A DNA stretch of 64,000 bases from Tubiluchus corallicola (lineage: Eukaryota > Animalia > Priapulida). Location of the stretch: assembly GCA_030141605.1 (NCBI GenBank), contig JAQGDQ010000213.1:310001-374000 (forward strand), in the 5' to 3' direction. Shown here piece after piece: positions 29,478 to 43,758 of this stretch. The translations under genes were made by a program, and so were the position numbers. How positions within the stretch are numbered: the first letter of the stretch is position 1; each line of letters starts with the position of its first letter. Below the pieces are notes generated by a model. That model ran no database searches. It saw only the letters and a list, made by a program, of their open reading frames with translations, and was not told the DNA's origin.

Positions 29478-32400
29478 ATGCTGTTTATGAGTCGTCCACG
29501 TAAGTAAACCTATTTCATTGTTATTTTAAAGTCATTATGCAAATATACATTATTTTCAGTTTATTAAGAAATAATGGTTTAAATTATTTGGTAGTTGAGA
29601 GTCAAGAATACGAGAGTGAGTTCGCAAATTGTATAACCCTCTCCGACTGAAGAGCCTACACTTGGCGCAGAAAATCTATCAATCTTATTAATTTTTTAGC
29701 TAGGTTTATTCACAGTCGTACAAATTATTTTTAAATAAAATTCACGTTAGAACTTGAAAGTATTCCCAAATTTAATAACGTATTTTAACTATTAAGCATC
29801 TATTGGAGCGGCGTCCAGATTAGAGTATGATTGTGGTTGCAGTAAATGGACGATGAAAATCGGATTTTTTATGTGATTGGTTAATAAAAATTGTTTTGTG
29901 TGATTAGTTAAAAATATAGCCTATAATGCTCAATGTGTTATTTGTGTGACTGTAGTAAACCCACTTCATATTTGGTTTGATATCTATGAAATCCTATATT
30001 TTTCAGTATGTTTTTTCTTTCTTGTATATATTTTGTTTTGTTCTATATAGAGAAACTACAGCAGTGGTTAATTGTTTCTCTTACGGTAAGATTTCTGAAT
30101 GTGTGCACGCAGTCAGTAGTAGAAGAATCAGGTAAGTCCTTATACTACCTTACAGTGAGCCAGTTGGCTAGCATGCGAATATAAATTCATTCGAAGACGT
30201 GCACTATAGAATGTTTTGGTAAAGCAAAAATTATTAATTAGTTGCTGAAAATAGAGCACAAATCCAAAATAACTTATTCTCCGCAAAAGAGAAGAATCTT
30301 TCTCTTATTGCACGTGATTTTTAAGAGAAAAGTTAAAAGCCAATGTTCATCTATATAGGTGGTAGGAGTGTGACATACGTCTGCAACAAAGATGAAAGTC
30401 CATGTTTTTCTGGGTCAACTTGTGTTGTTGGACTAGAGCTAGATAAAGACTACACATGCCTTTGTCCGCCAGGAAAAACCGGGCTTGTTTGTGATATCGG
30501 TACACAATTTTATGCAATATTAGGTTATTACTCCATAAAATTTTATGGAATTCAATTCATACGAGTCTCTGTGAGATATTCTGCCTTGTAGTAAATGATA
30601 ATGTGATTATTGTTCTAGCATTCCGTGCTCACACAATTGTTTTTTATGTATACCTTGGCACTGAAATCCAGAAGTGAATGGAGAGGAGGAACTTCCTACT
30701 AAGGTTAAATGTTTTATGGTGGGAATGGAACCTAGATCATCAAGACTAATGTTGTAAGATAAGGCACTGAACTAACAGGGTTGCCATATTCAGGTTTGGT
30801 CACATTGGTGTTGTGTGACATAGTTTACAGGAGTGGAAATAACAGATGAAGAAGAAAAAACAAAGCAGAATGTGAGAACTTTTAAAACTAGCTGAGAAAA
30901 TTAAGTGTTTTCAGACTTTAAGCTGAGAAGAAAAATTCTATATGAGAGCTGCAAAACAGTGAGATTTCTGAAATGGAAAAATCAATAAATGAAAAGATGA
31001 AAATCAGCTAAGGCAGAGAGCTTAAATAGGGCATAGGAACTTCAGATTGAACAGTGAGCGAGTGAACAGCAGACTCTTAACAGCAGCAAAGAATGTAGGA
31101 GCAAACACATATAGCGTTTGGCAGGGAGGTACAGGTCAATGGTAGCGTGTTCACTTCCCACCCAAGATGTTGTAGGTTTAACTCCTAACCTTGTATACCG
31201 AAGAACTAAAAAGTGGTACCGCTGGTTCTTCAACCAAGTATGCGGATTTATCGAAGTAACATGCTGGTAATAATAATCAGGTCTACCTTGGAAATTGGGT
31301 CACTTAAGGTGTTATCCCTGGACTATGTCCAAAACGAAATTATTATTGTTGTTACATATTAAATTTTTATAACTAATTTAAGCGTGAAAGGTTTTGAAGA
31401 TACTTTTATTGTAGACATTGACGAATGCAATTCTCAGCCATGTAATAGTGGTGGTACATGCATAGATCATCTCAGTTCCTATGAGTGCCTATGTCCAACC
31501 AGACAGTTTGGACCTCAATGCGAATTACGTATGTACAGTAATTAAAACTATGAATTGAATTGAACTTTTGAACCGTTGAACGGATTGCTTTTATTTGCCT
31601 AGCATGTTGATATGCTATAACAATGGCTTAGTATATGTTGACATAGAGAGACGGTGTGGAGAAAACTCAACAGTCACTAGCTGCCACACCTTTATCTTAT
31701 TACCTTAATTAATATTACTTCTGAGTTAATGACGTTAGTAAACGGCCCATCAGAATTCTCATTTAAAACAGGTAGGCTTATTAAGCAAAAATGGTAAACT
31801 AACACAGATAATACGTGTAATTAATTGCAAGTGGCAGATTGTCAAAGTGGTAAATACTGCAAATGTTGCTCACGCAGGATGACTTCATATATGCGAGTAT
31901 TATCTAATGTGTCTTAATGGTACTTACTATATAGGTCTAAATTACAATGAAATAATGGATATACTTGACTATGTAGCAAGCAGTTAACTTTTTTAACATT
32001 TCTTTAAACAATGAAATTTATTATTTATTAACTGTTTGATGATTGTGTCGTGTATAAATATCTGTTCTATATACATGCAGTTATTTTAGTACGACTAAAC
32101 GCGTAACACACTTATATGCATATACTGTATAATATAGCTGTTGGGGATCTGCTACAATCTATAACTGCCTCTCCATCTTCCAAACTGCTGGAAATGACCC
32201 GAGTGTGCATATGGTATATATAATTTTGTGGCCTTCTTCATCACACTCGGCGGAAGTTTTGTTGGGTCTATGCGACATTCGAAAAATTTTGTTTGCTTTG
32301 TATACGTGCAGCTGTTTGCTTCTGTAGGTAGTACTATTATATGAGGCATTAACGGACAATACTTGGTCTACAACTTATTATGCATTCTAACTGCATATTG

Positions 32401-43758: not shown

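What the first reader, a model, noticed from the sequence alone, without database searches (positions are those of the whole stretch)
29478..43758. Unrecognised receptor architecture: 24 EGF + 3 WAP + Fasciclin-3-like Ig + TM + tyrosine-motif tail
Seen: 16 phase-compatible exons join into one 4230-nt frame encoding a signal-like N-terminus, 24 EGF repeats, three 8-Cys WAP-type domains, one Ig domain, a TM helix and a ~95-aa tail. Known: Notch needs LNR/ANK domains, Delta/Serrate need DSL, Crumbs/Eys need LamG; none is present. WAP domains are normally found in secreted inhibitors or antimicrobials (elafin, SLPI, crustins) or matrix proteins (anosmin, WFIKKN). The Ig+TM end (WEW..GERF.A..C...L.I...DSR.Y...V.N..; ARVKKKWCF) resembles, from memory, the membrane-proximal domain of Fasciclin-3-like adhesion proteins. 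Inference: an exon-shuffled chimera in which a Notch-like EGF stalk and a protease-inhibitor cassette sit on an Ig-CAM anchor; a candidate protease-sensing, immune or allorecognition receptor, or a Notch decoy.
Basis: partly seen in the sequence, partly recalled or inferred. Interest (0 to 1): 0.8.

Follow-up and report, generated by a model that had tools for sequence, protein, structure and literature searches.

The report
EGF-WAP stalk on adhesion-molecule anchor
An invertebrate genome holds sixteen exons that read in one frame as 24 EGF repeats, three WAP domains, one immunoglobulin domain and a predicted membrane helix; they are likely one gene made by exon shuffling and would give a long cell-surface adhesion or spacer protein, but no RNA confirms the joins and the WAP domains lack the cysteine spacing of known protease inhibitors.

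Summary
Observation confirmed: 16 GT-AG exons join into a 4230-nt, 1409-aa frame with 24 EGF, 3 WAP, 1 Ig-fold domain, a hydrophobic helix and a 97-aa tail. EGF24 and WAP1 share one exon, so that fusion needs no splicing. The repeats are under purifying selection. The only credible relative found is a three-Ig membrane protein (P0001, 41-43% identical in the last Ig), pointing to an EGF/WAP front grafted onto an Ig-adhesion-molecule anchor. WAP cysteine spacing is 10/4, not the 6/8 of elafin and SLPI, so 'protease-inhibitor cassette' is unlikely. A membrane protein with WAP and EGF is already known (UMODL1). The Fasciclin-3 link could not be tested. The weak point is the WAP3-to-Ig join (41281/42490): a modest donor, no RNA run, and a published case of an EGF plus Ig-TM 'gene' that proved to be two. 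I put one gene at about 0.75-0.8. No paper or protein with this domain order turned up, in searches with thin coverage of this lineage; this scan had not noted it elsewhere. New variant of a known kind; interest 0.35.

The parts
29478..29499 (+). Exon 1, start codon, 7 codons
   Evidence: Donor scores 8.7 on a matrix of the gene's other donors; in frame. First-exon assignment is inferred.
30051..30131 (+). Exon 2, hydrophobic signal-like segment (alternative acceptor 30007 and alternative ATG 30008 also read in frame)
   Evidence: hydropathy only, no signal-peptide predictor available
30359..37451 (+). Exons 3-10: eight phase 1-1 exons, one EGF repeat each (EGF1-8); EGF2, 4, 6, 8 carry the calcium-binding pattern
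37654..39434 (+). Exon 11, EGF part: EGF9 (calcium-binding pattern) plus an intronless 111-nt tandem array, EGF10-24
   Evidence: TRF period 111, 11.4 copies, 74% matches; mean nucleotide identity 0.73 among EGF12-24, dN/dS 0.27
39435..39646 (+). Exon 11, WAP1 (core 39501-39617), in the same open frame as EGF24 with no intron between
   Evidence: ORF 37617-39659; Pfam WAP 27.8 bits
40719..40940 (+). Exon 12, WAP2 (core 40795-40911), phase 2-2
   Evidence: Pfam WAP 27.0 bits
41049..41281 (+). Exon 13, WAP3 (core 41128-41244), phase 2-1; donor 41281 lies 8 nt past the decayed donor (41273) that aligns with those of WAP1 and WAP2; in-frame stop at 41296-41298 if unspliced
   Evidence: Pfam WAP 24.0 bits
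42490..42828 (+). Exon 14, Ig-fold domain with two cysteines (aa 1193, 1240) and no cysteine in the usual F-strand motif
   Evidence: 41-43% identical to P0001 residues 227-333, both cysteines shared
43150..43272 (+). Exon 15, predicted membrane helix (about 43182-43241) and basic juxtamembrane stretch ending in WCF
   Evidence: Hydropathy 2.89; 11 of 21 identical to P0001 352-370, pairwise E 6e-4
43487..43758 (+). Exon 16, cytoplasmic tail to stop; YRN at 43600-43608 and SEYDRL at 43642-43659
   Evidence: no Pfam hit; not alignable to the P0001 tail (best E 0.53)

Best explanation
The sixteen exons read in one frame and are likely one gene, likely made by grafting an EGF/WAP front onto the last Ig domain, membrane helix and tail of an ordinary Ig cell-adhesion gene, and it would make a long type I cell-surface protein predicted to act as an adhesion and spacer molecule. 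Shown: the domains, the intronless EGF-to-WAP fusion, purifying selection on the repeats, and a relative with the same anchor but Ig domains in front. Inferred: the older, partly calcium-binding EGF1-9 form a binding head; the internally duplicated EGF10-24 lengthen the stalk (roughly 60-70 nm for 24 repeats at a recalled 2.5-3 nm each); 18 of 24 repeats carry the O-fucose consensus, so the rod would be sugar-coated; the WAP domains would be binding or structural modules, not elafin-type inhibitors; the YxxL tail motif would drive endocytosis or adaptor binding. The partner is unknown; I commit to another cell-surface or matrix protein.
For: One open 4230-nt frame, 15 of 15 GT-AG introns. EGF24 and WAP1 in one ORF. 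The donor at the homologous place in WAP3 has decayed (score -3.4 against 8.4 and 9.0 in WAP1 and WAP2) while a donor of the phase that the Ig exon needs lies 8 nt on (3.7; other 14 donors 2.3-11.5). No copy of P0001's first two Ig domains or signal is in the window, and none of 14 ATGs in intron 13 gives a convincing signal-peptide exon for a separate Ig-TM gene. P0001 has signal, C2-set, I-set, this Ig, helix and tail; its best solved relatives are MAG, CADM4, CD22 and SYG-2. dN/dS well below 1. Spliced EGFs are 27% alike outside cysteines, intronless ones 55%. O-fucose pattern 18 of 24, O-glucose 7 of 24, calcium-binding 5 of 24 (consensus patterns recalled).
Against: Donor 41281 is modest: 13% of 605 intronic GTs score as well, and a phase-matched site this good is expected by chance in that 53-nt stretch with probability 0.13. 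Acceptor 42490 ranks 4th of 60 AGs in intron 13 when left out of training. The matrices rest on only 14 sites. The tail does not align with P0001, so no tail motif is shown to be conserved. The signal segment is weak by hydropathy. Botryllus cfuhc was first described as one EGF plus Ig-TM gene and proved to be two (PMC3691228). Nothing here tests adhesion.
Confidence: 0.5

Rival explanations
1. Two transcription units, or mainly a secreted product: the EGF/WAP exons end by reading through to the stop at 41296-41298 and make a secreted EGF24-WAP3 matrix protein, while exons 14-16 are the 3' end of a separate Ig-CAM gene whose front lies outside the window or was lost.
For: WAP3 donor is among the weaker ones (3.7, fourth lowest of 15); an in-frame stop follows 15 nt later; ATTAAA at 41682 and AATAAA at 42293 could serve as poly(A) signals; precedent in Botryllus fuhc-sec (two EGF) and fuhc-tm (three Ig, TM), 227 bp apart (PMC3691228 passages). 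A 227-nt AG run (42001-42227) lies in this intron and no laid contig spans it.
Against: No front exons of the P0001 kind in 64 kb; the only ATG exon that reaches acceptor 42490 gives 9 residues with weak hydrophobicity; the Ig, TM and tail frames are intact and lie 1.2 kb behind WAP3 on the same strand, an intron length typical of this gene (108-1435 nt).
Confidence: 0.2
2. A non-canonical Notch ligand or antagonist, working like Drosophila Uif or Weary: the O-fucosylated EGF rod binds or shields the Notch ectodomain, and the tail tyrosine motif drives the endocytosis that ligands need.
For: Best solved relatives of the EGF array are DLL1 and Notch1; 18 of 24 O-fucose patterns; Uif (18 EGF, TM) antagonises Notch when overexpressed and Weary is called an EGF-repeat Notch ligand (PMC3340373 passages).
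Against: No DSL, MNNL, LNR or ANK family hit in 15 of 16 exons scanned; matches to DLL1 and Notch are expected for any EGF array; the WAP and Ig parts are left unexplained.
Confidence: 0.15
3. An immune or protease-sensing receptor: WAP domains catch proteases or microbes, cleavage at the dibasic sites round the cassette sheds the ectodomain, and the ITIM-like and YxN motifs signal.
For: 3 of 3 WAP domains pass the Pfam cutoff; the only three KR/RR pairs in the ectodomain lie before WAP1, before WAP2 and after WAP3 (aa 952, 1031, 1162); both tail tyrosines fit a motif, in 110 of 10000 shuffles both do; crustins are WAP antimicrobials (PMC9680087 abstract start and passages).
Against: Spacing 10/4, not 6/8; the review says 3, 4 or 7 residues between Cys2 and Cys3 may leave too little room for an inhibitory site (PMC11408880); a sequon sits beside Cys2 in 3 of 3 domains; net charge of the cores is +2, 0, 0, not cationic; no RxK/RR furin site; the two motifs were picked from five patterns tried, singly 835 and 1372 of 10000 shuffles; the WAPs sit at the base of a 24-repeat stalk.
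Confidence: 0.1
4. An allorecognition receptor, as in Botryllus fuhc or Hydractinia alr, recognising self by a highly polymorphic ectodomain.
For: EGF, Ig and TM parts occur in the fuhc locus; one contig of run X1 shows two amino-acid-changing differences in exon 11.
Against: Repeats show purifying, not diversifying, selection; no paralogous copy in the window.
Confidence: 0.03

Closest known systems
P0001 (unnamed 466-aa protein from a Logan assembly; three Ig domains, TM, tail)
   Same: Last Ig domain 41-43% identical, E 2.9e-12, both unusual cysteines shared; helix end with WCF
   Different: Has a CD80-like C2-set and an I-set domain in front instead of 24 EGF and 3 WAP; tail not alignable; species and orthology unknown
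UMODL1 / olfactorin (PMC8874799, passages read)
   Same: WAP, calcium-binding EGF and a transmembrane domain in one protein
   Different: Has EMI, FN3, SEA and ZP domains, one WAP near the N-terminus and no Ig anchor; here three WAPs follow 24 EGFs
Drosophila Uif and Weary (PMC3340373, passages read)
   Same: Long EGF arrays; Uif is a transmembrane protein that can antagonise Notch
   Different: Uif carries CLECT, CUB, CCP, FA58C and HYR domains and no WAP or Ig is listed; no Notch test exists for this protein
Botryllus cfuhc locus (PMC3691228, passages read)
   Same: EGF-bearing front next to an Ig-TM back, first read as one gene
   Different: Proved to be two genes; two EGF and three Ig, no WAP mentioned; highly polymorphic
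Elafin / SLPI, and molluscan perlwapin (PMC11408880, PMC9680087, passages read)
   Same: Eight-cysteine WAP core; perlwapin also has three WAP domains
   Different: Small proteins; elafin and the SLPI C-terminal domain have 6/8 spacing, here 10/4
Fasciclin 3 and Teiresias/CG17716 (resemblance recalled, not tested; PMC7578032 passages read for Tei)
   Same: Ig-superfamily type I membrane proteins; a similar membrane-proximal Ig and a WCF helix end are recalled only
   Different: All-Ig ectodomains (Tei five Ig-like repeats; Fas3 three, recalled); no sequence of either was available to compare

Membership tests
Notch receptors | LNR/NOD domains outside and ANK repeats inside | tested here: not met
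   No such Pfam hit in 15 of 16 exons scanned; tail is 97 aa
Canonical Notch ligands (Delta/Serrate) | N-terminal MNNL/C2 and DSL domains before the EGF array | tested here: not met
   Only about 42 residues precede EGF1; no DSL or MNNL hit
Crumbs / Eys | Laminin G domains among the EGF repeats | tested here: not met
   24 EGFs are contiguous; no LamG hit
WAP/WFDC domain superfamily | Eight-cysteine four-disulfide core | tested here: met
   3 of 3 above Pfam cutoff; eight invariant cysteines. Disulfide pairing itself not shown: the model failed (pLDDT 38)
Elafin/SLPI-type WAP protease inhibitors | 6 and 8 residues between Cys1-2 and Cys2-3 | tested here: not met
   10 and 4 in 3 of 3 domains against PMC11408880
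UMODL1 / uromodulin-like | ZP, SEA, FN3 and EMI domains | tested here: not met
   None hit in the exons scanned; architecture
Immunoglobulin superfamily, type I membrane | Ig beta-sandwich next to one membrane helix | tested here: met
   Model pLDDT 78.5; all 50 listed VIA matches at Z 9.3-10.5, led by NCAM2, CSF-1R and Dscam Ig domains; helix by hydropathy
Fasciclin 3 / Teiresias-like Ig-CAMs | Sequence or profile match of the membrane-proximal Ig to Fas3 or Tei | not testable with these tools
   No Fas3 or Tei sequence, profile or structure was returned; unlisted is not excluded
Non-canonical EGF-repeat Notch modulators (Uif, Weary) | Binds Notch or alters Notch signalling | not testable with these tools
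   Needs a binding or reporter assay; no Notch sequence of this species is at hand
Allorecognition receptors (fuhc, alr) | Extreme allelic polymorphism tied to fusion/rejection | not testable with these tools
   One DNA run only, possibly the source sample

The most novel reading that the evidence does not exclude
A single-gene inhibitory or damage-sensing receptor of a new build: a roughly 60-nm O-fucosylated EGF antenna sits on three glycan-shielded WAP domains bracketed by dibasic sites, so that proteolysis at the base sheds the antenna and WAP modules and switches an ITIM-like and Grb2-type tail, with a secreted twin made by read-through at the weak WAP3 donor.
Probability: 0.1. Interest if true: 0.65.

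Novelty: new variant of a known kind. Interest (0 to 1): 0.35.

Why it matters
It is a clear case of how a new cell-surface protein is likely assembled: phase-1 EGF exons, an intronless tandem expansion, a triplicated phase-2 WAP exon, and a shifted splice donor that would link them to a phase-1 Ig-TM anchor whose all-Ig relative still exists. Lineage-specific mosaics of EGF, WAP and Ig are common in invertebrates (own knowledge), and WAP with EGF on a membrane protein has a precedent, so a specialist would find the order new but not startling. It would matter more if the WAP cassette proved to be a shed or protease-sensing switch on a signalling receptor.

Tried and rejected
No whole genome is held, so paralogues and a separate Ig-CAM gene elsewhere could not be sought. 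No RNA holder listed (2 runs; X1 holds 0.59 of the words, X2 next to none); this says nothing on expression. X1 covers introns and shows no exon-exon joint, so it behaves as DNA and may be the source sample; X2 laid 0 contigs on either stretch. The two stretches laid (32950-41950 and 42260-44350) do not include the AG run, so the 41281/42490 join and DNA continuity across that run are untested. The X1 contig over the Ig and TM exons has depth 32 against about 6-19 for the longest listed contigs upstream; contig depth is no copy number, so I draw nothing from it. Word-seeded protein searches among longer proteins: Ig exon 0 of 111 candidates, WAP alignment 0 of 33, Ig alignment 1 of 1444, P0001 itself; weak evidence of absence. 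Of 3 HMMER hits P0002 (DUF4379 repeats) and P0003 (fish CD22-like Ig repeats, 35-residue match) were set aside as partial or unrelated. Metagenome scans: 0 of 147 for the Ig; 1 of 63 for WAP, L001, a 16-residue match in a frame with no WAP cysteine pattern, rejected as chance. PDB sequence searches of the Ig gave nothing below E 0.07; WAP2 gave elafin at E 0.06; the WAP profile gave 0. ESM Atlas gave generic V-set/I-set clusters for the Ig exon and basigin/neuroplastin-type clusters for P0001 225-375, none named Fasciclin 3. WAP structure prediction failed (pLDDT 38) and was not used for a fold search. Exact look-ups of the neighbouring PLD and cyclase proteins found nothing, so I could not place the organism. 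Earlier-finding look-ups near, by sequence, by relatives and by words found no note on this architecture. Ten paper searches listed no title or abstract start describing EGF-WAP-Ig-TM; most listed papers were seen as listings only, and no supplements were read, so domain tables in supplements may hold it. No complex prediction was run: no candidate partner.

Full report
Observation. A first try with other ends for exons 1-2 also read through (4278 nt); the 4230-nt form has the better donor (8.7 against 5.6), and all three N-terminal readings are hydrophobic (2.1-2.5 over 10 residues, against 3.3 for P0001). There are 24 EGF repeats, three WAP domains above the Pfam cutoff, one Ig-fold domain, one hydrophobic helix and a 97-aa tail. 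No further EGF or WAP pattern lies elsewhere in the window on either strand. A public run, X1, holds the DNA, introns included, with six single-letter differences listed over the first stretch and none over the second; it may be the source sample.

Anatomy and history. EGF1-8 are one per phase 1-1 exon and old (27% alike outside cysteines). EGF9-24 and WAP1 lie in one 1993-nt exon; EGF12-24 are 55% alike in protein and 73% in DNA, a 111-nt tandem expansion. The EGF-WAP fusion is therefore read directly from one ORF. WAP2 and WAP3 are duplicated exons about 68% identical in DNA to each other and to WAP1 in the core. Selection is purifying: dN/dS 0.27 over 78 non-independent EGF pairs (0.37 without cysteine codons), and dN 0.24-0.30 against dS 1.2-1.9 for the 3 WAP pairs. 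By recalled consensus patterns 18 of 24 EGFs could be O-fucosylated, 7 O-glucosylated, 4 O-GlcNAcylated, and 5 (EGF2, 4, 6, 8, 9) bind calcium.

The anchor. The Ig exon misses Pfam cutoffs but folds as an Ig sandwich (pLDDT 78.5; best Z 10.5, rmsd 2.3, 88 aligned, NCAM2, with many ties; Foldseek agrees). It lacks the usual F-strand cysteine and has two others, at the end of the second and the start of the sixth long strand of the model; a bond between them is my inference. HMMER over 1.84 billion representatives gave 3 hits, one full-length: P0001, E 2.9e-12, 43%. P0001 has a signal-like start, C2-set, I-set, this Ig, a helix ending in WCF and a tail; its best solved relatives are MAG, CADM4, CD22 and SYG-2. 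So an ordinary Ig-CAM with this anchor exists, and the simplest history is replacement of its front by the EGF/WAP exons. Which form is older is inferred from one relative, without a tree.

One gene or two. This rests on the 41281/42490 join. WAP1 and WAP2 end at strong phase-2 donors; the aligned site in WAP3 (41273) keeps AG/GT but scores -3.4, while a phase-1 donor 8 nt on scores 3.7, within the range 2.3-11.5 of the other 14. That is what a shift to fit a phase-1 Ig exon would leave. Against: 13% of 605 intronic GTs score as well, chance of such a site in the 53 nt available is 0.13, acceptor 42490 ranks 4th of 60 when left out of training, an in-frame stop follows at 41296-41298, and possible poly(A) signals lie at 41682 and 42293. 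A second in-frame join, 41273/42350, also exists with weaker sites. For two genes the Ig-TM part needs its own front: none like P0001's lies in the window, and of 14 ATGs in intron 13 the only one reaching acceptor 42490 gives 9 residues. Botryllus cfuhc is a warning: first one EGF plus Ig-TM gene, later two genes 227 bp apart (PMC3691228 passages). No RNA data could be laid on the join. I put one gene, with or without a secreted isoform, at 0.75-0.8.

How it likely works. The WAP domains have 10 and 4 residues between Cys1-2 and Cys2-3. PMC11408880 (passages) states that among human WFDC domains only elafin and the SLPI C-terminal domain have 6 and 8, and that 3, 4 or 7 may leave too little room for an inhibitory site; it also notes cross-class inhibition reported for another member, so activity is not excluded. 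An N-x-S sequon precedes Cys2 in 3 of 3 domains and the cores are near neutral. I therefore read them as binding or structural modules, as in anosmin-1 and olfactorin (PMC8874799 passages) or perlwapin (PMC9680087 passages). The three dibasic pairs of the ectodomain bracket the cassette, but none is a furin consensus. Both tail tyrosines fit motifs (YxN; S-x-Y-x-x-L), jointly in 110 of 10000 shuffles, but they were picked from five patterns and are not seen in P0001. Best reading (0.5): a long, glycosylated adhesion and spacer protein with an EGF1-9 head, an expanded stalk and an Ig-CAM anchor. Rivals: two genes or mainly secreted (0.2), Notch modulator like Uif or Weary (0.15), immune or protease-sensing receptor (0.1), allorecognition (0.03).

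Comparison and novelty. It fails the defining features of Notch, DSL ligands, Crumbs/Eys, UMODL1 and elafin-type inhibitors (exon 1, 7 codons, was not scanned). It is an Ig-superfamily membrane protein with WAP and EGF domains. WAP plus EGF plus TM is known in UMODL1; WAP beside Ig in papilin and WFIKKN is recalled. No protein or paper with the order EGF-WAP-Ig-TM was found (paper searches), but these collections evidently hold little from this lineage: even the neighbouring PLD was not found by exact look-up. Other notes on this genome call it a likely priapulid; I did not test that. Verdict: a real coding locus, likely one gene, new domain order of a known kind, interest 0.35.

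Noticed in passing
window 2853-6005 (-): Phospholipase D (PX, PH, two PLD motifs) in one uninterrupted ORF of about 1050 aa; animal PLD1/2 genes usually have many introns (own knowledge), so possibly a retrocopy.
   Followed up: partly
window 8834-9652 (+): Intronless cyclase-family (PF04199) protein with a hydrophobic N-terminus, next to the intronless PLD.
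   Followed up: partly
window 10849-14046 (-): ORFs reading as PHD-like, endonuclease and reverse-transcriptase pieces of a LINE element in different frames (named by eye, not scanned).
   Followed up: no
window 37929 and 37999: One X1 contig (depth 12) carries two differences in exon 11, both changing the residue; the second removes the first cysteine of EGF12 (one search read). Allele or amplification error; single contig.
   Followed up: no
window 41558-41605 (+): A 48-nt AG...GT segment in intron 13, phase 1-1 and stop-free (acceptor 4.0-4.6, donor 5.8): a possible small cassette exon between WAP3 and the Ig, or chance.
   Followed up: partly
window 61189-61670: A roughly 480-nt imperfect palindrome (68% identity to its own reverse complement), perhaps a MITE-like element.
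   Followed up: no
window 31248-31334 and 32746-32839: Same short repeat (84% identical) in introns 3 and 5 of the gene; other short intronic repeats at 34938 and 36857-36895 recruit unrelated contigs.
   Followed up: no
window 14329-14505 and 15177-15309: Two 16-17-nt minisatellite arrays in inverted orientation about 700 nt apart.
   Followed up: no
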